NCBI GenBank assembly: GCA_965223845.1
Contig: CBDCXR010000004.1
Coordinates: 6,113,252-6,177,251 of the forward strand
Reading direction: 5' to 3'
Source: Planctomycetota bacterium
Lineage (GTDB): Bacteria; Planctomycetota; UBA8108; SXIK01
DNA length: 64,000 nt
The notes under the pieces were generated by a model. The model was given only the letters and a program-made list of their open reading frames with translations. It made no database searches and was not told the DNA's origin. Of this stretch, positions 42,872 to 63,842 are shown one piece after another. The first letter of the stretch is position 1. Every line of letters begins with the position of its first letter. The position numbers and the translations under genes are program-made.

Positions 42872-44323
42872 TCATTTTGAAGAGGAAGTTCGCCCTTGGC
42901 TACGAGATTCAGCGTGCTTGTCTCGGATCCAATCGGGGACGCGAAACGAAACACTGAATTCGCCGCGATACCAGAGGCTGGTGCTGGGTACGACGGTGAG
43001 CGGAGCCGGAACGAGCTCCGATGCCGGCACGAGATCGGTCGCTGAGCTCGGATCGGCATCGATCCGAAAGCTGCGTTGATCCATTCGAACGTAGCGAAGC
43101 GCGAGCTGATCTCCGTCTCCGCGGAGAACCCCCGGCCAGCGCGCCGCGAGCTCGGCTTCGGTCGCGGGGAGCTCGCCGCGCGCTCGAAAGTGGCGAAACA
43201 GTCGGCCGGCGATGCGGAAGGCGCGGTTTGTGACGCCGGTCTTGAGGGCAGACTTGCATAGAGATCGGACGAGGGTAGTGGACATCTCGCCGATTCTCGT
43301 CGACATATCTTCGAGGTCCGCCGCGATCTCGGGAACCGTGATGCTTCGGTCTCCGCCGAAGCGTCGCTCGAAGCGATAGTAGGCGAGAGTCGCCCTCGCC
43401 GCATCGCGCGGGAGGAGCGCCCAGTCGCGGGGCGTCGCGAGGACACCCACCGCTTTTTCGAACGCAGTTGAGCCGAGCGTCGACGATCCGGTGAGATCGC
43501 TGAGAAGCGCGAACTCAGCCTCGACGAGAAGTGACTGAAAGAGAATTCGTTCGCCGCGCATCGCCTGCGCGAGCCGTGCAAACGGAGCGGGCGGGGTTTT
43601 GATCCAACGATCCACCCGGTCGTCCGAGACGATTCCACGCGCGATGCACGCGAGGTAGGCTTCGTCGCGAAATTGTCCGATCGCGTTGAACATCATCATC
43701 TCGAGCAGCGATCCGCAAGGCGAATTGGCGGCGACGAGACGGTCGAGGCCGACGAGGTACGGATCCGGTCCGTTCGGAGACACGACCGCTTGGATCCGCA
43801 TCCAAGTCGCCAGCTGGCGGAGGGCGAGCAGCGAGGGGATCCTCAATGTTACGGTCTCTCCGATGGTAGAGTCCGGCGAGAGATCCGCGGCCGCGTAGCC
43901 GTGCCCCGAGAGGACGAGCTCCGGGCGCTCGAGGAGCGCGAGGGCTTCGCGATAGTGCGCGTCACGGCCCGCGAGCGCGGAGGCGAGCTCCGGCGACACG
44001 ACGGCGGGTGGCGGGCTCGCGACCCACTCCTCGAACTCGACGAGCGAACTGAGAAGCGGAGTCGACACCCCGCGTTCGCTCCAGTCCCAGAACTCTTCTT
44101 GGAGCGCGGAGTCGACCTCGACCGCGTCGATGAACTCGGCGAGCGTGGTCCAGCCGCCGGCCGCGGCGATTTCGCGCTGAACGGCGGCGAACTCACCGCG
44201 CCCGTGAAGGCGAACGACCGCGCCCACTCCGACCGCGAGGATGGCGAGACTCGCGAGGATCCAGACGAAGGTCGGGATCCGTCGTGCGCGCAGCTTCGGT
44301 TTGGAGGAATCGCTCGGGTTCAC
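42872..44323 (-). CDS. membrane-anchored protein of unknown family, tandem paralogue 3 of 3
   Basis: 483 aa, GTG start, one N-terminal TM (IPTFVWILASLAILAVGVGAVV). Shares REIAAAGGWTTLAEF..AVEVDSALQEEFWDWSER, LDRL..ANSPCGS, GELP...LAARWP..GD.L.LRY and FRVPDW with the two upstream genes. Confidence 0.75.
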   Translation of the reverse strand: MNPSDSSKPKLRARRIPTFVWILASLAILAVGVGAVVRLHGRGEFAAVQREIAAAGGWTTLAEFIDAVEVDSALQEEFWDWSERGVSTPLLSSLVEFEEWVASPPPAVVSPELASALAGRDAHYREALALLERPELVLSGHGYAAADLSPDSTIGETVTLRIPSLLALRQLATWMRIQAVVSPNGPDPYLVGLDRLVAANSPCGSLLEMMMFNAIGQFRDEAYLACIARGIVSDDRVDRWIKTPPAPFARLAQAMRGERILFQSLLVEAEFALLSDLTGSSTLGSTAFEKAVGVLATPRDWALLPRDAARATLAYYRFERRFGGDRSITVPEIAADLEDMSTRIGEMSTTLVRSLCKSALKTGVTNRAFRIAGRLFRHFRARGELPATEAELAARWPGVLRGDGDQLALRYVRMDQRSFRIDADPSSATDLVPASELVPAPLTVVPSTSLWYRGEFSVSFRVPDWIRDKHAESRSQGRTSSSK

Positions 44324-44386
44324 CGGATGCTCTCGGAAACGTCGTGGTGGTGACCGCCGGTGTTTCGGCTTCGTGAACCCTCTTTC

Positions 44387-45829
44387 CTACTCGAACCAGT
44401 CGGGCACGCGGAACTGAAAATCGTAGCCGGTTGCTATCCAGAGTCTTTCCGCTGGTCGAGGCGCAGCGGGCCGCCCCTGCGCGAAGGAAGCGAACTCGGC
44501 GGCGGACAAGAGGGGCGTTGTGGCAATCCAATCAACGGTGACGCGAAACCGGCAGTCGTTTTCGAGTTCGTAGCGAAGCCGGAGTCCGTCTCCCTCCGGT
44601 ACGAAGAGATCGGGCCAGCGCGCGGCAAGCGTTTCTTGATCTTGGGGTAGCTCGCCGTGCGTTCGTCGATGGAGGTAAGCTCGCGCGGCGATCCGGAGGG
44701 CGCGGTGCGTATTGTCGAATGGGAAGAGCGACGAGCAAGTCGAGTAGAGGTCGAAATCGCTCCGATTCGACACTTCACGCGTAAGCTCTCGGAAGCTAGC
44801 TCGGATTTCTGCGAGCGAGATCGACGATTCACCGGAGAAGCGGCGTTCCAATTGATACTGAGCTCGAATCGCTCGAGCGAATTCGTCCCGGCCGAGAACC
44901 CAATCGATGCGTGTAGCGAGGTTCCGGCACGACGCCATGAACGGATGGTCCGCGGACGACCGCCGCCAACGAGTGCCGCCCGCCTCGACCAGAGTCGAAA
45001 GATCCGCGTCGAGGAATGGGATCAATTCGAAGATCCTGTCGCCGCGCATTCCTTCAGCGTAGCGCGTGAATACGCGGGAAGGTGCTTGGAGCCACGCGCG
45101 GGCGAGATCGGGACTCACCTGCCTTCGGACGATCGCGGCGAGATAGGTTTCGTCCCGAGTCCACCCGAAGAGGCGGGAAAGAAACGCGTCCCACGATTTG
45201 CCGCAAGGAGCGTAGCCGTTGTCGATTCGATCGAGGCTTCGCAGCCATCGGTCGGCGCTTCCGTCTGAGAGAATCGATCGAAAATGTATCCACCTCACTA
45301 AATCTCGCAGCGCGCTCACGCTCGAAGTTCGACGGCAGTTCTCGCCGTAGAGCTTCGATGCACCGGTCCAATCCAGCGGCGTGAAACCGTGCGCCGACAA
45401 GATCAGTCCCGGTCGTTCGAGGAGTGTGAGTCCTTCGACGAGCCACGGATGATTCGCCTCGGCCATGTCATCGGCCTCCGGCGGACGCGGCAGATTCGGG
45501 TCGCGCGCGATCCAGTAGTACTCGTCGGGTGGCGACTGGAACTCCCACCGCTCGTTCCAGTCCCAGAACTCCTCCTGGAGCGCCCGATCGACTTCGACGG
45601 CGCCGAAGTATTCGGAAAGCGTCGTCCAACCGCCACTCTCCGCGATGTCTCGTCGGATCGACGCGAGCGCTTCGGCCCGACGGGAGTGACTGATCCAGCT
45701 CACTCCCGCGGCGAGTAGGGTGACCAGAACGACCGACCGGGCCCACGGCCGGAAACTCCGTCGGTGGTAATCGCGCGATCTCGAACGGGTCTGAATCGGA
45801 AGACGTGTTTGTCTGAGTCCGCGCGTCAT
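44387..45829 (-). CDS. membrane-anchored protein of unknown family, tandem paralogue 2 of 3
   Basis: 480 aa, one TM (SVVLVTLLAAGVSWI). RDIAESGGWTTLSEYFGAVEVDRALQEEFWDWNERW; LDRIDNGYAPCGKS; GELPQDQETLAARWPDL...GDGLRLRY; FQFRVPDWFE. Confidence 0.75.
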   Translation of the reverse strand: MTRGLRQTRLPIQTRSRSRDYHRRSFRPWARSVVLVTLLAAGVSWISHSRRAEALASIRRDIAESGGWTTLSEYFGAVEVDRALQEEFWDWNERWEFQSPPDEYYWIARDPNLPRPPEADDMAEANHPWLVEGLTLLERPGLILSAHGFTPLDWTGASKLYGENCRRTSSVSALRDLVRWIHFRSILSDGSADRWLRSLDRIDNGYAPCGKSWDAFLSRLFGWTRDETYLAAIVRRQVSPDLARAWLQAPSRVFTRYAEGMRGDRIFELIPFLDADLSTLVEAGGTRWRRSSADHPFMASCRNLATRIDWVLGRDEFARAIRAQYQLERRFSGESSISLAEIRASFRELTREVSNRSDFDLYSTCSSLFPFDNTHRALRIAARAYLHRRTHGELPQDQETLAARWPDLFVPEGDGLRLRYELENDCRFRVTVDWIATTPLLSAAEFASFAQGRPAAPRPAERLWIATGYDFQFRVPDWFE

Positions 45830-45972
45830 TTAACCCCTACGCGTGCGCCTTGCCGACCAGCTCGAGTCACTCCGAAATCCGGAGTTCGTAGAGTGGTCTA
45901 GGATGTTCCGCCGCGCCCCGGTGACTAGTGAAGCCCTGTTCACTCCTCGGGATCTTTCTTCGCTTTCTTGAT

Positions 45973-47421
45973 TCACGTGGCTATTCGAACCACTCGGGGA
46001 TTCGAAACTCGAAGCGAAAACTCCAACCCGCCCAGAGGACCCCCTTCGACTTTGAGGTCGATCGGGTCGTCTGACTTCGACCAGAGCGCGATTTGTTCTG
46101 GGGATGCGAGCCTGCGCGGGCTCCTAGGGTCGACCGCGATCCGAAACTGATCGGCGCTCAGCTTCTCATACCGGATTCCGAGTCGATCGCCCGGCGCGGA
46201 GTAGAGATTCGGCCAGCGCTTCGCGAGTGACGCGTCGTCGGGGGGGAGCTCGCCGCTCGTTTTCCGGTCGAGATAAATGCGGCCGGCTAGCCGGATGATC
46301 CGGTGGGATGTGTCAAGAGCAAGAACCGCTGCGGAGAGCCCGGCGATATCCGGGCCGAGGATCCTGCCGTAGACGCTGCTCATCGACGAGCAGTCCACCG
46401 CGACCTGCGAGACGTCGACCGAGAGATCCCCTTCGAGACGACGTTCCAATCGATAGAGCGAGCGAATCGCTCGCGCGCAGTCAGAGGGAAGTGTCAACCA
46501 GTCGGTGGTCGAGACGACTCGGTCCCAAGCCACCGGACTCGCGTCGCGTTCGAGAACGGACCTTATCTTCCACCAGATTCCCATCCACTCTCGACGAGTC
46601 GCACTGCTGGTCTCAAGAAGCCGAGGCCAGAACACGATTCGATCCGCGCGGAGCCCTTCAGCGTAGCGCTTGAATGCGACGGAAGGCGCATTGAACCACG
46701 CGCTCGCAGACTCATCGGTGATCGCTCCGTGGATGATTCCGGCGAGATAAGCCTTGTCCCGGGCAGCACAATGTCGAGCGAAAAAAAACGCATCGAGCAG
46801 GCTCCCCGAGGGAGCGTTCGCGTCGACGAGACGGTCGAGAAGAAGAAGCCAAACAGTGGCATCCTGGTCGGGAGAGAGCGACCGAATCTGAAGCCAATCT
46901 GTAAAGTCGTCGAGCGATCTCGACACGAGCGCGCTCTCTGCGCGCGACTCTCTCATGAACTCCTCGACGCCGAGCTCGGTTGCGTTCGAGCCAACCGAAG
47001 AGAGGACGAGATTCGGTCGCCGAAGGAACTCGATGCCCTCCCGAAAGAGCTCTTTACTGGCCTCCAACGCGTCGTTGATCCCCGGCGGAATCGAGGCGCC
47101 CGGGCGTTGGACGACGAACTCCTGGATGACCCAGAATTCCTGGGCGTCCGCGAAAACGGCCGCCTCAACCACGCGCTCGCGCCAATCCCTGAATTCTTGT
47201 TGCAGACCCTCGTCGACATCGACGGCCTGACTCAGCTCGGCGATTGTCGTCCACCCCCCTTCGGTAGCGATCTCACGCTGAACTGCTTCGAGCTCGCTAA
47301 CGCCGCGGCTCCGCACGAGCCAGGCGAATCCCGCCACGATCAGAATGGAGCAGAGAAGAGTCCCGCCACAGATGACGAGGCGGCCCCTGCGCACGTGCCG
47401 AGGCAGCCCTCTCTTTGTCAT
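45973..47421 (-). CDS. membrane-anchored protein of unknown family, tandem paralogue 1 of 3
   Basis: 482 aa, one TM (LVICGGTLLCSILIVAGFAWLV). REIATEGGWTTIAELSQAVDVDEGLQQEFRDWRER; LDRLVDANAPSGS; GELPPDDASLAKRWPNL...GDRLGIRY. Its ATG overlaps the stop of 47418..47822 (ATGA). Confidence 0.75.
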   Translation of the reverse strand: MTKRGLPRHVRRGRLVICGGTLLCSILIVAGFAWLVRSRGVSELEAVQREIATEGGWTTIAELSQAVDVDEGLQQEFRDWRERVVEAAVFADAQEFWVIQEFVVQRPGASIPPGINDALEASKELFREGIEFLRRPNLVLSSVGSNATELGVEEFMRESRAESALVSRSLDDFTDWLQIRSLSPDQDATVWLLLLDRLVDANAPSGSLLDAFFFARHCAARDKAYLAGIIHGAITDESASAWFNAPSVAFKRYAEGLRADRIVFWPRLLETSSATRREWMGIWWKIRSVLERDASPVAWDRVVSTTDWLTLPSDCARAIRSLYRLERRLEGDLSVDVSQVAVDCSSMSSVYGRILGPDIAGLSAAVLALDTSHRIIRLAGRIYLDRKTSGELPPDDASLAKRWPNLYSAPGDRLGIRYEKLSADQFRIAVDPRSPRRLASPEQIALWSKSDDPIDLKVEGGPLGGLEFSLRVSNPRVVRIAT

Positions 47422-48685: not shown

Positions 48686-49624
48686 TTACGCGTAGGAGTA
48701 GCCGAGCGCTGCGATATCGCGCGTGTCGGCTTCGGTCTCACTCCACGGATCCATGATCGCCGCGGAGCCGGTGAGCGACGGGTGTTCGGTCGGATGCGTC
48801 TGCTGCCACTCGTGCCAGATCCGGTCGATCTCGGCGTGATGCATCCAGAAGATCGGATCGCACGGCGCAGTCGGAACGATTCCCATCGAGCCGCCGACCC
48901 ACACGTGACCCGAGTCGTGGACGCCCTCGAGATCCTGCCAAAACGGAACGAACGTCGCATTTCCCATCGCGGCGGTGACGTCGGCCGTATCGGGTAGAGT
49001 CGCGAACACGCCGATGTTGCGGGTGACCGTATGCGGACCGCTCGCGAGATTGACGGTCGGTGTGAATCCGAGCAGCCAAGACGGGAACGCTTGCTCTTCG
49101 CTCGACTTCCAGTAGGGAAGGCACACCGTAGGATCGATCGATTGGAGCAGCTCTTCGAGGCGCAGCAGATAGATTCGGTGCCACGGCAGGAAGCGCGGAT
49201 GCTGATGCATCTGGTGCGTCGAGTTCGCGTGGATGTCGACGAGCGGGCCGAGCGCGCCGAGAGCGTTCGCCTGCGCGAATGCGTTCAGGAAGCGAGTCTG
49301 CTGATCGGACGTGAGCGTCCGGTGGTCGCGACGCACACACAGCCGCTGGGGATCATTGTCGTCACCGTCGTCCTCGTGGCACTTCGTCGGCGGCTTGTAA
49401 CACTTCTCGATCGGCCTGAAGCACGAATGGTCGTACGAGTGTGGGACGTACGGCGGTGGATCCTTCGTCGCGTAGGAACCGTAGAGGTCCGGGTCCGGAT
49501 ACCGCGGATTCTCCGGTGGCTTGTGATGCGAATGGTCCGGTCGACCGTGGTCGTCGTAGTCCTTCTCGTAGCACGGATTCGGTTTCGGTTTCTTGTGGTG
49601 TTCGTGTTGTTTCCCTTTGCCCAC
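48686..49624 (-). CDS. tyrosinase / type-3 copper polyphenol oxidase with His/Tyr/Pro-rich N-terminal extension
   Basis: Track ORF 48686..49744. I prefer GTG 49624, with GGGAGA 6 nt upstream. CuA: HANSTHQMHQHPRFLPWHRIYL. CuB: HDSGHVWVGG...CDPIFWMHHAEIDRIWHEWQ. No signal peptide is visible. Confidence 0.8.
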   Translation of the reverse strand: MGKGKQHEHHKKPKPNPCYEKDYDDHGRPDHSHHKPPENPRYPDPDLYGSYATKDPPPYVPHSYDHSCFRPIEKCYKPPTKCHEDDGDDNDPQRLCVRRDHRTLTSDQQTRFLNAFAQANALGALGPLVDIHANSTHQMHQHPRFLPWHRIYLLRLEELLQSIDPTVCLPYWKSSEEQAFPSWLLGFTPTVNLASGPHTVTRNIGVFATLPDTADVTAAMGNATFVPFWQDLEGVHDSGHVWVGGSMGIVPTAPCDPIFWMHHAEIDRIWHEWQQTHPTEHPSLTGSAAIMDPWSETEADTRDIAALGYSYA

Positions 49625-49814
49625 GGATCGTCTCCCTTGAGAACAAACTGACTCGTTCGATCGTGCGACAAGTCCACCGCTATCGGTGGGCTTACCGCGT
49701 CCCAGTACCCCGATCGAGCGGACCCGTTTCGGTCCGCCGCGCAATCGACCGCGGCGTGCGCTTTGGGAAACGCACGCGTTCGCAAGATGCGGTTCGGTTC
49801 GCGCTACCCGGCCG

Positions 49815-56062: not shown

Positions 56063-56776
56063 ACGCTAGCTCCGACCGTTCTTTTCCCGCGGGCAGCGGA
56101 GCCGAGGCAAGCGTACGAAATCGAAAACCTTCCGCCCGCGCGGGGCGCGTCCAGGCGAAAGGCGCCTTGGGAAGTCCGCTGCGATCTGTCCGAGTTGTTG
56201 GTTCTCCCGGGTCTGGGGAAGTGGGTCCACGCCAGTTCGGGACTCGGCCATCAGGATACGCGGTCGGGTGGGTTGGGGGTATGGGTTTTTAGGGGAACGC
56301 CCCTGTGAAGCAATCGTAAATGCCGTCGCCATGGGGGGATGCGGGCGGTCGGTGAACCCCCGTTCCCGGCGGTCATCGATCGCGAAGACGTGGTTGACGG
56401 AGGCCGTCCGGGTGGGAGCGACTCCGCGAATCCGAGAGCCCGGAATCGAGGATCCGGGTCGGCCCGCGGGGGCGTCTCTCGGCCGGGGAGCGTCTCGAAT
56501 CTGTGTCGCCGCCGTGGCGGTCCCGGTTGCGCTCCGCTCGAGCTCAGTCGCCGATAGCGGAGTTCAACGAATCGTCGGGCGACGTTCGACGTGAATGAGC
56601 TCGAGGCCGGGACGATTTCGCCCGCACTTAGCTAGCCCGTTGTTCGGGGCGGCGTTCGTCGATGGCGGCACAAGGAATGTTAAGCTGTAAGCCTTACCTC
56701 AGTCGGCATAGTTCGCTCACTCAAGATCTTCTCGAGCGGGCGAACGAGACTCAATCCCACTTTGGTGAATGGGCAG

Positions 56777-59700
56777 ATGGACGAACAACTCGATGTCATC
56801 AATCAACTTTCTGAGGCCTGGCAAACCGGGCACGCGATCGTTCCATTTCTCGGGGCGGGCATCTCGATCGGTGCGGGAGTGCCGACGATTTCGCAGCTGA
56901 AGGAATACTTCGCGAAATTCAGATTCTACGTAGAGAACGGAGCATACGGTCCTTCCGATCGACGGTTCAAGTTTCGCGGGCAAGCTGCCGCCAATCCCAG
57001 CGAGTACCTAACGGATTTCGGCTGGCCCGATCCCTACCAGCTCGAAGCGGACTTGTGGTACTGGTTTGACGAGTCGCATCGGTCGAACCCGGATAAGCAC
57101 CTGCCGTGCGGACGCGATCAGCTCGACAAGGTCGTGCAGGACACGATACTTCGCGAGATCCGTCATGAAGAGCCGGGTCTCGTCGATGCGATCCGACGCG
57201 GAGCCCACCCGATCTCCGTGTCTGGAAACTGGCACGCTCTCCTGGGACAGCTAACCGGTGGCAATCTCGACTACGTCGACGCACTCTTCGATCGGTTGTC
57301 GAAGGGCCGGGAACCTGGCGCTGCACACACCTATCTCGCGTTTCTCTCTCAGTTGATGGGATGGCAGCTCTTCCTGACGATCAACTTCGACAGTCTTCTC
57401 GAAGAGGCGCTGCGCGCGGAGGGCTTGGTGCCAAAAGTGTTCGATGTATTTCGTGACGCTTCACTTCCGCACGACTCGCTCGTAAGAGGGCACCTCGCCG
57501 TAGTCAAGCTCCACGGCGGGGCGTACGGACTCAGGACAGGTGAACGGCTTGACTATGCCCTCGAACCGGAGAGCCGCGATCGTCTACTTCGCTATATTCC
57601 GATCGACGGCATCGTGTTGGTACTCGGCTTCGGTGGCTCCGAGCGACGGATGACCCAGCTCATGGAGCAGCTTATCATCCGCGGCGGCTCGGCAAGAGGA
57701 CCCTATCCGAGCGTGATTTGGCTCTATGCCGAGTCGACACCCCCGCCCGCACTCGTATGGCTCCAAGAGAGGGCTTCGAGTTTTGGAAGCGACCGGGAAC
57801 GAATTCTCCGCTCTTGTCGGATCAGCGACGCCGGGCGGTTTCTGAACGAGCTCTACTGTCGCGTCGCGAGTACGCATCCGGCGGGTGCTCAGATGTACCC
57901 CATCGGCAGCGTTCGCCCGATCGGCGTGAGCGCTCGCGTGGAAACACTCGCTCCGAGCGACGACGGGAAAACCGAGAGCGAGTCTGGAGGCGAGGCGAAC
58001 GGTGACGGAAGACTCCGCGAGCCCGCGGCGACCGCGAAACTGGAACCGGACGCACGGCCTGACGAAGGAGTAGATGACGGCGGACAAACGGAAAATGAGA
58101 CCGAGGACTGGGCTGAATTCGTCGAGCGTCCCGTGCAGATTTTCACCTCCATCAAGTCAAGCGATGAAATCGGAACTTCTTCGGAGCTCGAGAGTTCGGT
58201 GATGATGACAGAGTTCGTGGCTGAGCTCGGCCCTCGGTACCGAACCATTTGGATTGATTTCGAGCAACACCACACAGTCGACGGCGTCGTCACGGAGATT
58301 GTCGATCGGCTTCGTCAATACGACACGGCTCTCGCGCCATTCGTCGTTCCGTCCGGTGACGAAACAAGAGAGAACTATTCCTCCGCCGTCCGTCGAGTCC
58401 GCATGGCGCTGAGGAGGGGCCGGTACGTACTCGCGTTTGACTCGGTCGCGGCGTTTGCCCGCCCCGAAACCGTTCACCACGGCGTCCCGGAGTGCCCCAC
58501 AGATCCTGAGAAACAGGACGACGAGTCCAAACGTCTAACGAGGCGGGTCGGCTCGTTGAATTCGTTTCTCACCGAGCTGTGCGCGATTGGCGTAAAAGAC
58601 TCGCGGGTCGTTGCTGCAGAAGCGATCAAGGACAGCTATTTGTGCATCGCCGTCGACGAGCCTAGGAGCCGATTCGGTAAAGACCCGAACGATAAACACC
58701 TAGACATCGTCCGTTCCGCGATCAGCAAGTTCTACAAAGAAGCCGACCGGGAATCTAATAAGAAGCGAGAGCAGGGATTGGCGCCTCCGCACGTCGCGCT
58801 GCGAGGGCCACTGCACGCGAGCGCCATGCCGAGCCCGAGTCCCCCCCCGAACGTTTGCTCGGCGGAACTCATTCGCGGTTATTTGCGACGGGGCATTGTC
58901 GAACCGAGCGACGTCGGTTCGTCGCTGACGAGCACCGCGCTTCTCATTCTCTCGTTCTTCCGCAAACCGCCAAGCGTCGTGGCGGTGCGCTCGTTGCTAG
59001 CGGACGCGTGCCCGCTAGAAAACGATCTCGCGCCTCAGCAGAGGCAAGTGTACGCGAAGATCGACAAATTGCTTGAGGACCTTCAGAGCGAAGGCCATCT
59101 CGCGCGCCTCGAAGGGGGTGCGTACTGGATTAGCCGAATCAAGCGAGATCTCGTCTATGAAAGTTGGTTGAAGCTCTCCTACCCTTCCGAAGTTCGAAAT
59201 CTCTGCAAGCAACTGATTCCAATGCAGCAACTCACGGTCGAACAAGATGACTTGGTCCGAAACACCGCGATCGAGCTTTTCTTTGTTTGCACCCAGCACA
59301 GACGAATCGCGAAGTACTACTACACGGAGCTCTTCTTTGCCTCGAAAGACGTCGGGGCGTTCTTCGAGTATCTTTACCATCGGGTTTCATCGATCCGCTA
59401 TTTGCGCTTGCTCCAACTGCTAGTTGTATCGACGAACTCCAGAAATTGGATTCGAGAGAGAATCCGCCCGACGACGGAAGCTCCTCGATTTTCGGGGGAA
59501 GATCCACTGGAAGCGTTCGGGGGATCCTTCGACGAACTCCTCAAAGTGAACGACGCATCCGTCGTGTACTCGGAGCTCGTAGCGTCCGAGATTCGTTCGC
59601 TGCGCCAGACCCTTCACCGAGAGCGAGAATCGATTCTCGCGAGTGCGCCGGCCGACACCTGGATCGGCTGGATTCGCCGAATCGAGACGCACGATCTCGA

Positions 59701-61564
59701 CGATTTTCGCTTCGCCCTGAGTCCGCTCAAATCATCGGACGGCGTCGAGATAGAGAGAGACGATCCCGTAACGACGGCCTGCCTTGATTTGCGCCGGGAT
59801 CTTCAGGATCTGCAGGCGAAAGTACTTCGGGAGAAGGGCGACTATAACAAGTGTGTAGACTTGCGGTCCGAACAGATCGGTGCGGTTAGCACACACTCAA
59901 TTGCAGAGTGGATCGACCGTGCCAACTGGCTCCGCGATCAAGGGACCTGCTTGGTCAGCCAGTTCAGATACGACGATGCAAGAAACCGGTTCGACCAAGC
60001 TAAGGAGGCGCTGACCGAGGCGGAACGTGCTCGGAGGGAGGCGAACGGTGCGTCCAGCGACGCGGACGATTCGTACGCGCGGCGGATCGGGACCGCCAGA
60101 CTTTCCCTGCTATTTCGGCGCATCGTGTTCGATCTGAACGACATCAATCCATGGGAATTAAAGGGACGGAATCGATTCGGAACTTCAGACCCGATCACAG
60201 AGGTGCACCGGTTGTGCGAGGACGCGCGAGTTCGTTGCGTGGCGGGTCAACGGGACGTTCGACGGACAATCTACACACGCGCGGCAGATTACGCCGACTT
60301 CCGTTGCTATTTTCTTACGCTCGAAGCGAGAGCGCTCTATCTACAGGACAAATTCGCCCGAGCGCACGAACGGCTTGATCGAGCAGAGGCTGGATTGAGC
60401 GCTCACGACGCGGTTCAGCGTCAGGGTCTCGCGGTAGTGCTGCTTTCTCGTGCCGAGTGTCTTCTCTTAAGCGCGGATCAAACCGTTGAGACTTATGCGA
60501 ACCGTGTTGTCAGACGTCGAGCCGGGCAAGAACTGAACTACGTGCGGTCTTCGCAACTTTCCGTGTTCGCTTTGCAAAATGTTCTCGAATCTGTGGGGAT
60601 CGAGCCGCGTGATAATGACGCCTACCACCAACTAACAGGACTCGCTATCGACGCCCCACACGACGGTGCTGCGCTTGAAACTCTCAAGGAGATCGCGGCG
60701 GAAAGACCGATCGATCGAATGCGCCTTGGCGTAGAAGAGCCCGGTCTCGTCCAGCGCGCACAAGAGTTGCTGGAAAAACGCAAGAGAATTCAACGCGCAA
60801 TGCCGACGGATATCACGAAGTTGTCCTTCTGCGAGTGGCGTGACTCTCTGCTCAACGACTCTGCCGGATTACTAGACGAGGCGGACCATCGCGCGTGCAT
60901 CGCGCGCGCCGACCGCAAGCTTTGGCGAGCAGAAACCTGCCTGGATCAGGCGGAACGATTGTTCACCCGAGGACGGCGCAACGTCTATTGGTGGCATCAG
61001 CTGTATGTTCTTCGGGTCCAGCTTTACATCGAGCGTCTGCTCCTCGAGATGACCGCTCGGACGAAGGCCTTCGGCGATACCTGGCCGGAGTTCGTCGTTC
61101 GCTTCCAGCAATGTGTTCGCGGGGCACTCAACGCGATTCGAAGTGCGCGAGATACCTTGGCTCGCCCGCGCCGTGAGGGCGGCGGCGGTCGCCGGGCTCG
61201 CAGGACACACCTTCGAGCCCTTTGGCTCGAGCTCATGCTGTGCTCGTGGTACCTCAGCATCACAATCCAAAAATCCCTCGACGACGACCCTAAACACAGT
61301 CACCGACCGTGGTTCTACATCATCGGAAGCGGGTCACACGACGTTCTTTGGGATCGATGGAAATGGATGAACGAATCCTCGGGGAACCGAGACTGGGTGC
61401 AGGGCAATGTGGACGAGATTGTCCTGTCTCTACTCGAACGGAGTGCCAAGGACGTCGAATGGTACCACGGTCATTCGATCCGCTCGCGCGCCAATCTCCT
61501 CCAGGTCGTGAACCGCGCATTTGGCGCGGACGACATTAAGAGTCTTATGGAGGAATCTCAGTAG
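56777..61564 (+). CDS. SIR2-domain giant protein (SIR2_2-type N-terminus + long helical/TPR-like region)
   Basis: Track ORF starts at TTG 56762. I prefer ATG 56777 (MDEQLDV...). SIR2_2 motif series: AIVPFLGAGISIGAGVPT, FLTINFDSLLEEAL, LAVVKLHGG, IVLVLGFGGSERRM. An acidic linker follows, then ~1,100 aa of helical repeats. No P-loop is visible. Confidence 0.8.
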   Translation: MDEQLDVINQLSEAWQTGHAIVPFLGAGISIGAGVPTISQLKEYFAKFRFYVENGAYGPSDRRFKFRGQAAANPSEYLTDFGWPDPYQLEADLWYWFDESHRSNPDKHLPCGRDQLDKVVQDTILREIRHEEPGLVDAIRRGAHPISVSGNWHALLGQLTGGNLDYVDALFDRLSKGREPGAAHTYLAFLSQLMGWQLFLTINFDSLLEEALRAEGLVPKVFDVFRDASLPHDSLVRGHLAVVKLHGGAYGLRTGERLDYALEPESRDRLLRYIPIDGIVLVLGFGGSERRMTQLMEQLIIRGGSARGPYPSVIWLYAESTPPPALVWLQERASSFGSDRERILRSCRISDAGRFLNELYCRVASTHPAGAQMYPIGSVRPIGVSARVETLAPSDDGKTESESGGEANGDGRLREPAATAKLEPDARPDEGVDDGGQTENETEDWAEFVERPVQIFTSIKSSDEIGTSSELESSVMMTEFVAELGPRYRTIWIDFEQHHTVDGVVTEIVDRLRQYDTALAPFVVPSGDETRENYSSAVRRVRMALRRGRYVLAFDSVAAFARPETVHHGVPECPTDPEKQDDESKRLTRRVGSLNSFLTELCAIGVKDSRVVAAEAIKDSYLCIAVDEPRSRFGKDPNDKHLDIVRSAISKFYKEADRESNKKREQGLAPPHVALRGPLHASAMPSPSPPPNVCSAELIRGYLRRGIVEPSDVGSSLTSTALLILSFFRKPPSVVAVRSLLADACPLENDLAPQQRQVYAKIDKLLEDLQSEGHLARLEGGAYWISRIKRDLVYESWLKLSYPSEVRNLCKQLIPMQQLTVEQDDLVRNTAIELFFVCTQHRRIAKYYYTELFFASKDVGAFFEYLYHRVSSIRYLRLLQLLVVSTNSRNWIRERIRPTTEAPRFSGEDPLEAFGGSFDELLKVNDASVVYSELVASEIRSLRQTLHRERESILASAPADTWIGWIRRIETHDLDDFRFALSPLKSSDGVEIERDDPVTTACLDLRRDLQDLQAKVLREKGDYNKCVDLRSEQIGAVSTHSIAEWIDRANWLRDQGTCLVSQFRYDDARNRFDQAKEALTEAERARREANGASSDADDSYARRIGTARLSLLFRRIVFDLNDINPWELKGRNRFGTSDPITEVHRLCEDARVRCVAGQRDVRRTIYTRAADYADFRCYFLTLEARALYLQDKFARAHERLDRAEAGLSAHDAVQRQGLAVVLLSRAECLLLSADQTVETYANRVVRRRAGQELNYVRSSQLSVFALQNVLESVGIEPRDNDAYHQLTGLAIDAPHDGAALETLKEIAAERPIDRMRLGVEEPGLVQRAQELLEKRKRIQRAMPTDITKLSFCEWRDSLLNDSAGLLDEADHRACIARADRKLWRAETCLDQAERLFTRGRRNVYWWHQLYVLRVQLYIERLLLEMTARTKAFGDTWPEFVVRFQQCVRGALNAIRSARDTLARPRREGGGGRRARRTHLRALWLELMLCSWYLSITIQKSLDDDPKHSHRPWFYIIGSGSHDVLWDRWKWMNESSGNRDWVQGNVDEIVLSLLERSAKDVEWYHGHSIRSRANLLQVVNRAFGADDIKSLMEESQ

Positions 61565-61676
61565 TCTCTCTTCATCGATCTCTTTTCACGTCCCCCGCAC
61601 CTCTACCCGCCTAGCCCTCTGCGAAGCGGCCTTCGGCATCATCACTTGCAGCACGCCGTTTTTCAGCTCCGCCCCC

Positions 61677-61928
61677 GTCTACATCATCGGAACCGGGTCG
61701 CATGGAGTTCTGTGGGATCGGTGGAAGTGGATGAATGAGTCCTCGGGAAATCGAGACTGGGTGGAGGACGACGTCGAGGAGCTCGTTCATTCTCTCCTTG
61801 CGCAAGGCGCGAAGGACGTCGAAAAGTTCTACGGTCATTCGATCCGCTCGCGCGCGAATCTGCTCCGCGTCGTGAATCGCGCGTTCAACGAGCCGGAGGT
61901 CAGGCGGCTCATGAGCGACTCCGAGTGA
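61677..61928 (+). other. orphan, diverged but intact duplicate of the last 83 codons + stop of the SIR2 gene
   Basis: VYIIGTGSHGVLWDRWKWMNESSGNRDWV...GHSIRSRANLLRVVNRAF...LMSDSE aligns without gaps to FYIIGSGSHDVLWDRWKWMNESSGNRDWV...GHSIRSRANLLQVVNRAF...LMEESQ (61313-61564). It is in a different frame from the main gene. Its only in-frame start is TTG 61521. Confidence 0.85.
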
Positions 61929-62120
61929 TCTCTCCTTGGATTCGTGAAATCGCTCGCGGGCGATCCGGCGTAGGGCTTGTCCCAGAGAGCGGCGCTTGAC
62001 CGCCGCCTCACGCAAAGCTCTCCGGCCGGTGCGGAAGCGCGAACCGGCCTGAGCTCGGTTTCGGCGAGTTGGTGACGCCGGTCGGCGTGGCCCGGAATCT
62101 GAAACCCACGTCCCGTTGGC

Positions 62121-63842
62121 TCAGGTCACCTCGTGAGCTAGAAGCTCAATCGACGCATCCCCTCGAGCCGTCCAACCGATCCACAGGCGTTCGCCGAAGT
62201 GAACGAGGCACGGCGACTGCTTCGACTCCTCGCGCAGCGCGACCCGGTCCGTCCACGAGGAGCCGTCGTCACTCGTTGCGAGGTGGATTCGTGCGCTCTC
62301 CGCATCGCGCCAAGCGAGAAACAGTCCCGTGGGGCCCGCCGTGAGCGCGACGGGAGCATCGGATTTCCTTCCGATCGCCTTTTTGGGGGAAAACGCTCCT
62401 CCCGTTCGCGTCGAGGTCCACAAGCGGTCCGCTGCATCGCCCCAGACGAGGACGAGGCGATTCCCGAGCGCCGCGAGCGCCGGTCCGGTTCGCGTCGTCC
62501 AGGGCAGCGTCGTCTTCGCGCTCCAGGTTCGACTGTCCGTCGACTCGATCATGCTGATTCGATTGCTTCCTCTCGCGCGCCAAGCGCAGAAGACTCGATT
62601 CGGTGAGGCGGCGAGGGTGGGTGGGGACGCCGTTCGCGCGTTGAGCGACGCGTCCGGGCCCCAAGCCGTGCCGTCCGTCGAGCTGATCACGCGGAGCTCT
62701 CTCGTTCCGTGGCTCGCGTAAGCGACGACGTACGACCCTCCAAACGAGACCGCTGCGGGAGCGAGGCGTGTCGCCGCCCCGAGTCGCCGGATCGTCCCGA
62801 AGGTCCGCCCGTCCGTCGAAGCACGGCATCGTATCCGGCCCGTGACTCGATCGGACCAGACGAGCAATAGCTCCCCGGGTCTGGCCGCCAAGGCCGGACT
62901 CGCGCGACTGCCCGTGCGAAGGCCGACTCTCTCCGTCAATCGAATCTTGAGCGTCTCTGCGACTTTCGTCATGTGCTTTGCCGACGCCTGCTCGCGCTGG
63001 CCAGGTTTTTCGCCGGCAAAATGAAGTCCCACCGCTGCGTGACTCGAGGCCTCGAGCCAGAGGGCTCCGGAGTCGCCCTTCTTCGTGAGCTCGCCACCCG
63101 AGCTTGCCGGAACGATCGATAGTTCGTGAGTCCCGACGCCGTCGATGACGCCCTCGGTCCGCCCGGTTTTCGCGCCCGATTTGATGACTCGCATTCCGAT
63201 CGCCGGTGGGACGACGCCCGTCACTCCTCCCGGAATCCCCACGATCCCGCGCGACGCTTCGCGTTGGTTCCCGAGTTGAGCGACCGCACAATCGAGTTCG
63301 CGGTTGGAACGAAGCACGCGGGCGATGCGATCCCCGACGGCGGTCGTGCCAGGTTGCGTGACCCAATCGCCTCGCGCGCCGTTCGCGCGGGACCGCACGA
63401 ATACGTGGTGATTCGAAAGAACGAGTGAATCGCCGGTCGCACGATCGATCACGACCGCGCCGATCGTCCCCTTCTGATCGAGGCGAACGTTGCGAGCCTG
63501 GCTACCGCCGACGATCGGATCGAATCGTTCCCCTTCGTGCAGATCGATCGACGACTCGATGACATCGACGGGGATTCCGAAGATCGACCGAGGAATGCGC
63601 TCGGCTCGAGGCAGCTTCGCGAGGTCGACCTTCTTGCTCACGTACGCACGGAGACAGATCTCGCTCGTCATCCGTCCGTCGACCCAGCGGTAGCCAACGT
63701 CGACGCGCTCGACTCCCGCCCTCCGGAGCAATCGCTGGCGGTGCGTTCGCAGTCGCTTCAAGTGGCGCACCATCTCTCGGTCGGTGAGCACGGCGACTGG
63801 TCCGCGTCGACGGCGTCGCTTGGACTTCTTCGCTTTCCCCAT
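62121..63842 (-). CDS. trypsin-like (S1) serine protease fused to Asp-box beta-propeller, no signal peptide
   Basis: 573 aa. Basic N-terminus: MGKAKKSKRRRRRG. Putative triad: SNHHVF / LDCAVAQ / KKGDSGALW. The C-terminal half has about 6 blades with STDGRTFG, STDGTAWG, STDSRTWS, SDDGSSWT and recurring P.LA....L.L.W. Confidence 0.75.
   Translation of the reverse strand: MGKAKKSKRRRRRGPVAVLTDREMVRHLKRLRTHRQRLLRRAGVERVDVGYRWVDGRMTSEICLRAYVSKKVDLAKLPRAERIPRSIFGIPVDVIESSIDLHEGERFDPIVGGSQARNVRLDQKGTIGAVVIDRATGDSLVLSNHHVFVRSRANGARGDWVTQPGTTAVGDRIARVLRSNRELDCAVAQLGNQREASRGIVGIPGGVTGVVPPAIGMRVIKSGAKTGRTEGVIDGVGTHELSIVPASSGGELTKKGDSGALWLEASSHAAVGLHFAGEKPGQREQASAKHMTKVAETLKIRLTERVGLRTGSRASPALAARPGELLLVWSDRVTGRIRCRASTDGRTFGTIRRLGAATRLAPAAVSFGGSYVVAYASHGTRELRVISSTDGTAWGPDASLNARTASPPTLAASPNRVFCAWRARGSNRISMIESTDSRTWSAKTTLPWTTRTGPALAALGNRLVLVWGDAADRLWTSTRTGGAFSPKKAIGRKSDAPVALTAGPTGLFLAWRDAESARIHLATSDDGSSWTDRVALREESKQSPCLVHFGERLWIGWTARGDASIELLAHEVT

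What the first reader, a model, noticed from the sequence alone, without database searches (positions are those of the whole stretch)
61313..61928. Diverged but intact duplicate of the SIR2 gene's last 83 codons sits 112 nt downstream: possible orphan C-terminal cassette
Seen:
- 61313-61564 (83 codons + TAG) and 61677-61928 (83 codons + TGA) align without gaps.
- By my hand count, 187 of 252 nt and 57 of 83 residues are identical.
- About 20 codons differ only synonymously.
- There is no frameshift or internal stop, and the stop codon falls at the same aligned position.
- The copy is in a different frame from the main gene.
- It has no in-frame ATG or GTG between 61524 and 61677; the only in-frame start is a TTG at 61521, inside the main gene.

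Inference: the excess of synonymous change argues for long-term constraint at the protein level rather than a fresh duplication scar. There are three possibilities:
- a silent alternative C-terminal module exchangeable by homologous recombination, comparable in logic to orphan rhs/cdiA-CT or pilS cassettes, which would diversify the end of a defence sensor;
- the remnant of a deleted tandem paralogue;
- a separately translated ~9-kDa protein that mimics or caps the giant protein's C-terminus.
Basis: partly seen in the sequence, partly recalled or inferred. Interest (0 to 1): 0.7.

Follow-up and report, generated by a model that had tools for sequence, protein, structure and literature searches.

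The report
Leftover tail of a SIR2 gene
Just after a giant SIR2-domain gene sits an intact but start-less second copy of its last 83 codons, most likely the recently stranded tail of a second, diverged copy of the gene and not a working swap-in cassette, so it is a real but fairly ordinary rearrangement scar.

Summary
Segments 61313-61564 and 61677-61928 align without gaps: 187/252 nt, 57/83 aa, 21 synonymous-only codons, aligned stops, copy in the +1 frame.

Formal dN/dS is 0.17-0.23 with dS about 1. A copy that was useless from birth is rejected.

That constraint does not show present function:
- It also covers the 18 codons upstream of the only in-frame ATG.
- The only upstream start is a TTG inside the main gene, and its 52-codon leader scores like non-coding sequence.
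- The module is the terminal four helices of an alpha-solenoid. In 1.84 billion representative proteins it occurs only at the C-terminal end of ~1300-1750-aa SIR2 proteins or their fragments.
- None of 60 related loci carries a second module.
- The copy's synonymous codon usage is host-like, while the main gene's looks foreign.

Best reading (about 0.6): the recently orphaned 3' end of a second, diverged full-length homologue, left behind by deletion or gene replacement.

A recombination cassette or a small capping protein is not excluded, but nothing supports either. Interest is low to moderate.

The parts
56777..61564 (+). Main gene: a 1595-aa protein (P0002) with an N-terminal SIR2_2 domain and a long all-helical C-terminal region. 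The open frame begins at TTG 56762.
   Evidence: Searches give the ORF and P0002 (1595 aa, starting at the ATG). Pfam PF13289 matches at aa 203-318. PADLOC gives only weak SIR2-region hits to PDC-S65, LmuA and ThsA. GC3 is 0.66, against 0.69-0.87 in 14 other large ORFs of the window.
61313..61564 (+). Module A: the last 83 codons plus TAG of the main gene, forming the terminal four helices of the protein.
   Evidence: One search gives the alignment. In the AlphaFold model of the last 496 aa, the module is residues 414-496 (helices 421-435, 446-462, 469-484, 487-495). It begins in the lowest-confidence loop, 412-415. It scores 30.5 bits against a family C-terminal profile built without it.
61565..61676 (.). 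112-nt pyrimidine-rich spacer between the two modules, with no detectable homology to anything else in the locus.
   Evidence: It shows no similarity to the sequence after module B or to the sequence before module A. No terminator, promoter or Rfam match was found. Its codon score in the B frame is 0.044, typical of open non-coding frames.
61677..61928 (+). Module B: an orphan copy of the 83 codons plus TGA, in frame +1 relative to the main gene. It is intact but has no start codon at its beginning.
   Evidence: One search gives the alignment. dN/dS is 0.17-0.23 and dS about 1. It scores 26.4 bits against the family profile. It keeps W13, W16, N20, R59 and L78 but has K where 14 of 17 relatives with a residue there have W. 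Its GC3 of 0.771 exceeds that of all 1513 main-gene windows, and its codon usage is host-like.
61731..61928 (+). 65-aa ORF called by a gene finder (P0001), starting at the only in-frame ATG, which is codon 19 of module B.
   Evidence: This start lies near the end of the module's first helix and would drop the conserved LWDRWKW motif. Codons 1-18 upstream of it still show dN/dS 0.11.
61521..61676 (+). Open leader in the B frame, running from TTG 61521 (inside the end of module A) to the start of module B. It is the only way to translate the whole of module B as a separate 135-aa product.
   Evidence: An open frame of this length is expected by chance in 46-56% of cases. Its codon score lies in the bottom 10% of real coding windows.
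61929..61934 (+). TCTCTC directly after the stop of module B, identical to 61565-61570 after the stop of module A. This is the last trace of shared sequence.
   Evidence: repeat D1 extends to 61570/61934.

Best explanation
Module B (61677-61928) is a non-functional, recently orphaned 3' end of a second full-length homologue of the SIR2 gene. That homologue had diverged from the present gene by about one substitution per synonymous site.

For nearly all of that divergence, B was translated as the C-terminal four-helix cap of a ~1600-aa protein. That is why it shows purifying selection over all 83 codons.

A single rearrangement then removed everything upstream of codon -83. This was either deletion of most of a tandem paralogue, or replacement of an older resident allele by an incoming lower-GC3 allele through one illegitimate joint at 61676/61677. 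The tail was left 112 nt behind the stop of the surviving gene, out of frame and without a start.

Its intactness reflects recency, not present function. If B is now neutral, it has drifted for no more than roughly 0.05-0.1 substitutions per site.

Shown: the repeat, the constraint, the lack of a start, the uniqueness of the arrangement and the compositional difference. Inferred: the existence of the second homologue, the type of rearrangement, and non-function.
For: 1. Constraint was real but old.
- dN/dS is 0.17-0.23 and dS is 0.9-1.2.
- In simulation, an in-situ duplicate that was neutral from birth stays stop-free in 4% of runs and never has 26 or fewer aa differences. Two equally constrained lineages (omega about 0.15) reproduce the data.

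2. Constraint covers codons 1-18 of B (dN/dS 0.11, dS 0.80). These lie upstream of the only in-frame ATG, so B did not evolve as the 65-aa ORF.

3. There is no credible way to translate the whole module now.
- The only upstream start is TTG 61521, inside the main gene.
- The open leader is expected by chance in 46-56% of cases.
- Its codon score is that of open non-coding frames.
- No promoter-like site was found.

4. The module is a terminal part of a larger fold, not a free-standing family.
- It is the last four helices of a confidently modelled alpha-solenoid (pLDDT 85, pTM 0.88).
- All 33 profile hits in 1.84 billion representative proteins place it at the extreme C-terminus of large proteins or of N-truncated fragments. 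Five of the seven shortened hits looked up come from 1-3 kb contigs.

5. The arrangement is a one-off.
- 58 family loci from GTDB species representatives plus the two closest relatives have no second copy.
- The positive control found the window's copy.

6. The two lineages have different histories.
- B's GC3 of 0.771 exceeds that of all 1513 main-gene windows (mean 0.664), while windows of 14 other large ORFs of the window average 0.78.
- B's synonymous-codon score of 0.108 equals the mean of those other ORFs, 0.112. No main-gene window reaches it.
- A main gene that has not taken on host composition argues that a divergence of dS about 1 did not accumulate in situ.

7. The left breakpoint is sharp, with no upstream similarity.

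8. There is a small sign of relaxation: B has K at a position where 14 of 17 relatives with a residue there, and copy A, have W.
Against: - No second full-length homologue with a B-like end was found anywhere, and nothing is more than 41% identical to the main protein. The donor or ancestor is therefore hypothetical.
- No close relative or empty site is available. POR orthologues at 80-83% identity have different neighbours.
- B is fully intact. It scores almost as well as A against the family profile (26.4 against 30.5 bits) and keeps all five (near-)invariant module residues. This is also what a functional module would look like.
- The compositional argument rests on 83 codons. My own normal-approximation estimate, not a tool result, puts B's GC3 against the main-gene mean at roughly p = 0.02. 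Part of it compares against windows of the training gene.
- Low GC3 in the main gene could be gene-specific, not a sign of foreign origin.
- Tandem paralogues of this family were not seen in any of the 58 loci, so the deletion variant has no precedent.
Confidence: 0.6

Rival explanations
1. Silent recombination reservoir. B is kept as a donor for the C-terminal cap of the SIR2 protein. Because the copies align without gaps at an offset of 364 nt, any A x B crossover deletes 364 nt and yields an in-frame gene whose end is partly or wholly B. Gene conversion could do the same without loss. Either would change a possible recognition or regulatory surface.
For: - B lacks its own start, as orphan cdiA-CT fragments do.
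- The gapless register guarantees in-frame chimeras.
- A 25-nt identical run exists at 61467-61491.
- B keeps every conserved module residue.
- In the characterised defence sirtuin DSR2, phage proteins act as activator (the tail tube) and inhibitor (DSAD1) (PMC10981675, abstract).
Against: - There is only one copy, not an array.
- No second module was found in 60 related loci.
- The modules are homologous throughout (69% aa), not polymorphic after a conserved junction.
- No partner gene follows.
- DNA identity is only 75%, with no long identical block. dS of about 1 is spread evenly (0.93 and 1.01 in the two parts), so there is no trace of past conversion.
- In direct orientation a crossover is a one-way deletion.
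Confidence: 0.1
2. Separately translated small protein. B is made as a 135-aa product from TTG 61521 or a 65-aa product from ATG 61731. It mimics or caps the C-terminal end of the giant protein, for example as a regulator or decoy.
For: - The reading frame is intact and dN/dS is 0.2.
- A gene caller reports the 65-aa ORF.
- The B frame is open back to a TTG that overlaps the end of the main gene.
- The module begins at a loop between helices.
Against: - The ATG product would lack most of helix 1 and the conserved W-x-x-W motif, yet those untranslated codons show dN/dS 0.11.
- The TTG leader looks non-coding, and its openness is expected by chance.
- No promoter-like site was found.
- No stand-alone homologue exists in 1.84 billion representative proteins.
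- Four terminal helices of a solenoid are unlikely to be a stable independent domain (inference).
Confidence: 0.1
3. In-situ tandem duplication of a 364-nt unit, whose second copy has been a decaying pseudogene ever since.
For: It is the simplest origin for a direct repeat with spacing 364. The TCTCTC shared after both stops shows that the duplicated unit ran past the stop.
Against: - It predicts a pairwise omega of about 0.4-0.55, about 50 aa differences and a 96% chance of a stop. The observed values are omega 0.17-0.23, 26 differences and no stop or indel.
- It also predicts equal synonymous composition of A and B. This is not seen clearly: GC3 is 0.687 for A against 0.771 for B.
Confidence: 0.04
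4. Programmed +1 frameshift near the end of the main gene, producing a protein with module A (minus its last residues), a Ser/Thr/Pro-rich linker and module B in tandem.
For: B is in the +1 frame, and that frame is open from 61521, before the stop of A at 61562.
Against: - The open frame is expected by chance.
- Direct reading of 61521-61564 shows no slippery or stall motif: no homopolymer, and CAG-TAG at the stop offers no +1 re-pairing.
- The leader has a non-coding codon score.
- No family member has two terminal modules.
Confidence: 0.02
5. Assembly artefact that joined two versions of the same gene end in tandem.
For: The source is a single 7.87-Mb contig, probably from a metagenome-assembled or long-read genome.
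Against: Artefactual duplications are near-identical. These copies differ at 26% of positions with a codon-structured pattern, and each has its own stop and a different flank.
Confidence: 0.03

Closest known systems
Orphan cdiA-CT / rhs-CT fragments downstream of full-length cdiA or rhs genes (Poole et al. 2011, PMC3150448)
   Same: Both are 3'-end gene fragments lying just downstream of the full-length gene, in the same orientation and lacking translation initiation signals. Both are thought to arise when a C-terminal end is displaced, and could be re-loaded onto the main gene by recombination.
   Different: Orphan CTs are polymorphic and unrelated after a conserved junction motif (VENN, or the rhs core). 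They come with a cognate immunity gene, are often arrayed, and recur in many species. Here the two ends are homologous throughout (69% aa), there is no partner gene, there is a single copy, and none of 60 related loci has one.
Silent pilS cassettes donating to pilE in Neisseria (from my own knowledge, not tested against a paper here)
   Same: A promoter-less, start-less partial copy of the 3' part of an expressed gene that could donate sequence by homologous recombination.
   Different: pilS systems have multiple copies, with alternating conserved and hypervariable segments, and undergo frequent RecA-dependent gene conversion. Here there is one copy, evenly spread synonymous divergence (dS about 1) and no trace of conversion.
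Gene remnants left by partial deletion or by replacement of a resident allele, for example through homology-facilitated illegitimate recombination (general knowledge)
   Same: A sharp breakpoint, a start-less fragment, an out-of-frame position, uniqueness to one genome, and a compositional difference between the fragment and the neighbouring intact gene.
   Different: Such remnants usually carry stops or indels, whereas this one is still perfectly intact. That requires the event to be recent, at most about 0.05-0.1 neutral substitutions per site.
Single-chain defence sirtuins such as DSR2 (PMC10981675, PMC10973363)
   Same: An N-terminal SIR2 domain followed by a large helical region. In DSR2, phage proteins act as activator and inhibitor (abstracts).
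   Different: No sequence match to DSR models or to any solved structure. Foldseek gives only generic TPR-like hits with E > 0.1. A defence role for this family is untested.
Diversity-generating retroelement template/variable repeat pairs (from my own knowledge)
   Same: Two direct repeats, one at the 3' end of a gene and one just downstream.
   Different: Mismatches are not confined to adenines of one copy (21 A, 17 C, 15 G, 12 T in A; 13 A in B). They are concentrated at third codon positions. None of the neighbouring ORFs scanned gave a reverse-transcriptase match.

Membership tests
Orphan C-terminal toxin modules (cdiA-CT / rhs-CT type) | A 3' gene fragment downstream of the full-length gene, in the same orientation, lacking translation initiation signals | tested here: met
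   B starts 112 nt after the main stop. There is no ATG, GTG or TTG at or just before 61677, and the only upstream in-frame start is TTG 61521, inside the main gene.
Orphan C-terminal toxin modules (cdiA-CT / rhs-CT type) | A conserved junction motif followed by a polymorphic tail unrelated to that of the main gene | tested here: not met
   A and B are homologous over all 83 codons (69% aa). The first 29 codons are more conserved (dN/dS 0.06) than the rest (0.28), but the rest is still clearly the same module.
Orphan C-terminal toxin modules (cdiA-CT / rhs-CT type) | A cognate immunity or partner gene directly after each module | tested here: not met
   After A comes a 112-nt spacer. After B come 192 nt and then the stop of a convergent 573-aa gene.
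Orphan C-terminal toxin modules (cdiA-CT / rhs-CT type) | Recurrence: orphans or arrays at many loci of the family | tested here: not met
   58 family loci plus L081 and L082 show no second copy by tblastn. The six-frame profile scan found one module at each of the 7 loci where any was detected, and two only in the window.
Silent-cassette antigenic variation (pilS/pilE type) | Several silent partial copies | tested here: not met
   Only one extra copy exists in the 64-kb window. The rest of the genome could not be searched.
Silent-cassette antigenic variation (pilS/pilE type) | Evidence of gene conversion between the silent and expressed copies (identical tracts, mosaic divergence) | tested here: not met
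   dS is 0.93 and 1.01 in the two parts. The longest identical run is 25 nt. My own rough calculation, not a tool result, puts a run that long at only marginally unexpected for 75% identity before allowing for codon structure.
Silent-cassette antigenic variation (pilS/pilE type) | Variant junctions in populations | not testable with these tools
   No reads are available, and no close relatives were found in the metagenome, viral or protein collections.
Diversity-generating retroelement (TR/VR) | Differences confined to adenines of the template repeat | tested here: not met
   Mismatches fall on all four bases in both copies, and 36 of 63 coding differences are at third codon positions.
Diversity-generating retroelement (TR/VR) | An adjacent reverse transcriptase | tested here: not met
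   The flanking ORFs give POR and weak, sub-threshold NAL1_N/BNR matches, and none of the other ORFs scanned gave a reverse-transcriptase match. Not every ORF of the window was scanned.
SIR2_2 (PF13289) domain proteins (main gene only) | A match above Pfam's gathering score and the family's invariant N-F-D / H motif | tested here: met
   27.9 bits against a cut-off of 24.5 at aa 203-318. N203, F204, D205 and H246 are invariant in the 43-sequence family alignment, which includes the window protein.
Stand-alone small protein family made of the module | Homologues that consist of the module alone, with their own start, in other genomes | tested here: not met
   All 33 profile hits in 1.84 billion representatives are C-termini of large proteins or N-truncated fragments. 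None begins at the module boundary. The five shortest of the seven fragments looked up come from 1-3 kb contigs.
Programmed +1 ribosomal frameshift fusion | A slippery or stall site in the overlap, and conservation of the fused architecture | tested here: not met
   No slippery motif was found by inspecting 61521-61564. No relative has two terminal modules. Frameshifting itself is not testable here.
Gene remnant (truncated homologue) | Start-less, sharp breakpoint, lineage-specific, with constraint explained by a former full-length context | tested here: met
   The expected decay (stops, indels) is absent, so the event must be recent. One conserved Trp is lost.

The most novel reading that the evidence does not exclude
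B is a maintained, silent alternative end for a giant SIR2 protein. A single A x B recombination (a 364-nt deletion, always in frame) or a conversion would swap part or all of the terminal four-helix cap. This would give a defence-type sensor a stored second specificity or regulatory state. That would be an rhs/cdiA-like 'orphan' logic applied to an immune sensor instead of a toxin.
Probability: 0.1. Interest if true: 0.7.

Novelty: new member of a known kind. Interest (0 to 1): 0.25.

Why it matters
As read here, the feature is a small fossil of gene turnover. It suggests that two diverged versions of an uncharacterised ~1600-aa SIR2 protein succeeded each other, or sat side by side, at one chromosomal site in a probable Planctomycetota genome.

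That is mildly informative about how such accessory, possibly defensive, genes are replaced.

It also carries a methodological caution. A low dN/dS between a gene and an adjacent intact fragment measures the whole history of divergence, not the present state, so it cannot by itself show that the fragment is functional.

If the minority reading were right (a stored alternative C-terminal cap), it would extend orphan-module diversification from secreted toxins to intracellular sensors. That would be of real interest to people working on anti-phage immunity.

Tried and rejected
Searches for relatives of the module
- A word-index protein search (5.8 billion proteins) with B found only the window's own 65-aa call.
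- The JGI metagenome and IMG/VR scans found nothing.

Orthologous or empty-site loci
- The nearest POR orthologues (80-83% identity) have different neighbours, so no synteny comparison was possible.
- Looking up P0001 in the contig index returned nothing.

Homology beyond the repeat
- There is none upstream.
- There is none downstream beyond TCTCTC.

Signals in and around the spacer
- No sigma-70-like promoter or intrinsic terminator.
- No Rfam family.
- No unusually stable RNA fold, with z-scores of -0.2 to -0.5. One search failed on a length limit.

Identity of the C-terminal region
- No PDB sequence match or NCBIfam match.
- Foldseek against the PDB gave only generic TPR-like hits with E > 0.1.

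Rejected explanations
- DGR, because of the base spectrum of the mismatches.
- A pseudogene since an in-situ duplication, by simulation.

Other
- The open frame from 61521 is not evidence of coding, since 46-56% of such frames are open by chance.
- Polarising the A/B differences with the family (at most 34% identity) had little power. Apart from W50K, the two copies are equally close to the family.
- No tRNA gene lies in the window. No integrase or transposase domain was matched in the ORFs scanned, but most ORFs of the window were not scanned.


Full report
WHAT IS THERE

The window carries a 4.8-kb gene on the + strand. The open frame runs 56762-61564, and the called product P0002 starts at ATG 56777 and is 1595 aa.
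- It has a Pfam SIR2_2 domain near the N-terminus (27.9 bits against a cut-off of 24.5).
- PADLOC gives only weak hits, confined to the SIR2 region.
- It has no match in NCBIfam or among PDB sequences.

The last 83 codons plus stop (61313-61564, 'A') recur 112 nt downstream at 61677-61928 ('B').
- The alignment is gapless, with 187/252 nt and 57/83 aa identical.
- 21 codons differ only synonymously and 26 differ non-synonymously.
- Differences by codon position are 13/14/36.
- The stops are aligned, and B is in frame +1.

The match is the only extra hit of the protein in 64 kb, at E about 1e-30, and it is repeat D1.

The similarity has a sharp left edge and ends six bases (TCTCTC) after the stops. 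The flanks are unrelated.

It omitted an in-frame ATG at 61731 (codon 19 of B), which a gene caller used to call a 65-aa protein, P0001.

THE CONSTRAINT IS REAL, BUT WHAT IT MEANS IS LIMITED

dN/dS between A and B is 0.195 (NG86), 0.233 (LWL85), 0.165 (YN00) and 0.166 (ML), with dS of 0.9-1.2.
- Placing the same number of substitutions at random gives a mean of 39.7 aa changes, against 26 observed (P = 5e-5). Only 8% of such sequences stay stop-free.
- A forward simulation of an in-situ duplicate whose second copy is neutral from birth stays stop-free in 4% of runs and never gives 26 or fewer aa differences.
- Two lineages both under omega of about 0.15 reproduce the data.

So the B lineage was constrained about as strongly as the A lineage for most of a long divergence.

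This does not show that B is constrained now. The same numbers arise if B was the end of a full-length functional gene until recently. If B is neutral today, its intactness limits the neutral period to roughly 0.05-0.1 substitutions per site. That is a small fraction of dS of about 1.

CAN B BE EXPRESSED AS IT STANDS?

The only in-frame ATG is at codon 19.
- In the structure model it lies near the end of the module's first helix, after the most conserved motif of the family, L-W-x-x-W-x-x-[LM]-N.
- Codons 1-18, which would be untranslated in that case, still show dN/dS of 0.11 at dS of 0.80.
- B therefore did not evolve as that 65-aa ORF.

The only way to translate the whole module separately is from TTG 61521, inside the end of the main gene, through a 52-codon leader.
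- An open frame of that length is expected by chance in 46-56% of cases in this GC-rich DNA.
- The leader's codon score (0.044) is typical of open non-coding frames (40% of them score at least as high). It falls in the bottom 10% of real coding windows.

No promoter-like site, terminator, Rfam family or unusually stable RNA fold was found around the spacer.

A +1 frameshift fusion is formally possible because the B frame opens before the stop of A. I see no slippery motif in 61521-61564, and no relative has two modules.

WHAT THE MODULE IS

The main protein belongs to a sparsely sampled family of ~1300-1850-aa SIR2 proteins that are at most 41% identical to it. The family occurs in Planctomycetota, Acidobacteriota, Verrucomicrobiota and other phyla.

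AlphaFold2 with the family alignment models the last 496 aa as one all-helical solenoid (pLDDT 85.4, pTM 0.88).
- The module is its last four helices.
- The breakpoint (residue 414 of the fragment) falls in the lowest-confidence loop, which is also a variable-length linker in the family alignment.
- Foldseek finds only generic TPR-like similarity with E > 0.1.

A family C-terminal profile built without the window's protein scores A at 30.5 bits and B at 26.4 bits. Both copies keep W13, W16, N20, R59 and L78. The one clear loss in B is W50K, at a position where 14 of 17 relatives with a residue there have Trp. Otherwise the two copies are equally close to the family.

A profile of the module searched against 1.84 billion representative proteins finds 33 proteins.
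- In every one, the module is at the extreme C-terminus of a large protein or of an N-truncated fragment.
- Of the seven shortened hits looked up, five come from 1-3 kb contigs and two from contigs longer than 60 kb.
- None starts at the module boundary.

There is thus no stand-alone family.

IS THE ARRANGEMENT RECURRENT?

No.
- In 58 family loci from GTDB species representatives with flanks of up to 10 kb, and in the loci of the two closest relatives, tblastn of each protein against its own masked locus finds no second copy. The same procedure recovers B in the window.
- A six-frame scan with the module profile finds one module at each of the 7 loci where any is detected, and two only in the window.
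- No relative of the module was found in the JGI metagenome contigs or IMG/VR.

Close relatives of the organism are not available. POR orthologues at 80-83% identity, one from a Planctomycetota chromosome, have different neighbours. Orthologous or empty sites therefore could not be compared.

COMPOSITION POINTS TO DIFFERENT HISTORIES

The main gene is poorer in GC3 (0.664) than 14 other large ORFs of the window, which I used as the host reference (0.69-0.87; their 83-codon windows average 0.78).
- B has GC3 of 0.771, above all 1513 sliding 83-codon windows of the main gene. A has 0.687.
- A synonymous-codon score contrasting those other ORFs with the main gene gives B 0.108 against a host mean of 0.112. 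A scores -0.01, and no main-gene window reaches B.

The sample is small and part of the comparison is against the training gene, so I treat this as suggestive.

Its logic is useful nonetheless. If A and B had diverged by dS of about 1 in situ, the whole gene should have taken on host composition, and it has not. The divergence therefore probably predates the main gene's residence here. B looks like the longer-resident sequence.

BEST EXPLANATION (CONFIDENCE ABOUT 0.6)

B is the recently stranded 3' end of a second, diverged, full-length homologue. Two routes are possible:
- An older resident allele was largely replaced by an incoming allele, with one illegitimate joint at 61676/61677. Composition mildly favours this route.
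- Most of a tandem paralogue was deleted. No tandem pair is seen in 58 loci, which counts against this route.

B is not expressed as a protein. It is intact only because the event is recent.

Shown: the repeat, the constraint, the lack of a start, uniqueness, module anatomy and the compositional contrast. Inferred: the second homologue, the kind of rearrangement and non-function.

RIVALS

- Silent reservoir for swapping the C-terminal cap (0.1). Any A x B crossover is in frame and there is a 25-nt identical run. But there is one copy, no recurrence, no polymorphic tail, no partner gene, 75% identity and no sign of conversion.
- Separately translated small protein (0.1). Argued against above.
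- In-situ duplicate that has been a pseudogene since birth (0.04). Disfavoured.
- +1 frameshift fusion (0.02).
- Assembly artefact (0.03). The copies differ at 26% of positions in a codon-structured way.
- A DGR template/variable pair. Rejected by the mismatch spectrum, and none of the ORFs scanned gave a reverse-transcriptase match.

COMPARISON WITH KNOWN SYSTEMS

The closest in layout are orphan cdiA-CT/rhs-CT fragments (PMC3150448). B shares their position, orientation and lack of initiation signals. It fails on the polymorphic tail after a conserved junction, the partner immunity gene, arrays and recurrence. I therefore do not file it there. It could still 'work like' one in the minority reading.

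It resembles a pilS cassette only in being a silent partial copy.

It fits the ordinary category of gene remnants, except that it has not yet decayed.

VERDICT

This is a new member of a known kind. Interest is 0.25. The most novel reading not excluded is a stored alternative cap for an immune-type SIR2 sensor, with probability of about 0.1 and interest of 0.7 if true.

Noticed in passing
window 56777-61564 (+): The main protein belongs to an uncharacterised, sparsely sampled family of ~1300-1850-aa single-chain SIR2_2 proteins. Its closest relative in 5.8 billion proteins is at most 41% identical. The family occurs in Planctomycetota, Acidobacteriota, Verrucomicrobiota and others. It has no PDB, NCBIfam or specific PADLOC match, and its C-terminal ~500 aa model as one alpha-solenoid.
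   Followed up: partly
window 56700-61950: The SIR2 gene is a compositional island between a POR operon and a convergent gene. Its GC is 55-62% and GC3 0.66, against 64-69% GC in the flanks and GC3 of 0.69-0.87 in other large ORFs. The window has no tRNA gene, and no integrase or transposase domain was matched in the ORFs scanned.
   Followed up: partly
window 62121-63842 (-): This convergent 573-aa ORF has weak, sub-threshold Pfam hits to NAL1_N and BNR_2. By eye it carries a trypsin-like GDSG motif followed by several S-x-D-x-G-x-x-W (BNR/Asp-box-like) repeats. This is an unusual protease plus beta-propeller combination next to the SIR2 gene.
   Followed up: no
window 42872-47421 (-): Three tandem ORFs of 480-483 aa (42872-44323, 44387-45829, 45973-47421) are paralogues of one another (35-37% identity, E of 1e-72 to 1e-84). 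None has a Pfam match.
   Followed up: partly
window 61565-61676: The 112-nt spacer between the two modules is strongly pyrimidine-rich on the + strand (TCTCTCTTCATCGATCTCTTTTCACGTCCCCCGCACCTCTACCCGCC...). It matches nothing else in the locus, and its origin is unexplained.
   Followed up: partly
proteins P0170 (608 aa) and P0184 (789 aa), from contigs of 68.7 kb and 62.7 kb: Two family members on long contigs are N-terminally shortened, so they lack the SIR2 end but keep the C-terminal solenoid and module. They could be split or truncated genes, or assembly frameshifts. Their loci could not be fetched with the tools allowed.
   Followed up: no
window 38214-40379 (-) and 48686-49744 (-): A CotH-kinase-like protein with EF-hand domains and a tyrosinase-domain protein lie upstream. 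They appear unrelated to the finding.
   Followed up: no
L085 15359-17449 (a Planctomycetota chromosome, relative by POR): In the 80%-identical POR relative, a large serine recombinase (Resolvase/Recombinase/Zn_ribbon_recom) lies about 3 kb downstream of the POR operon. This suggests that the surroundings of this operon are variable in the group.
   Followed up: no
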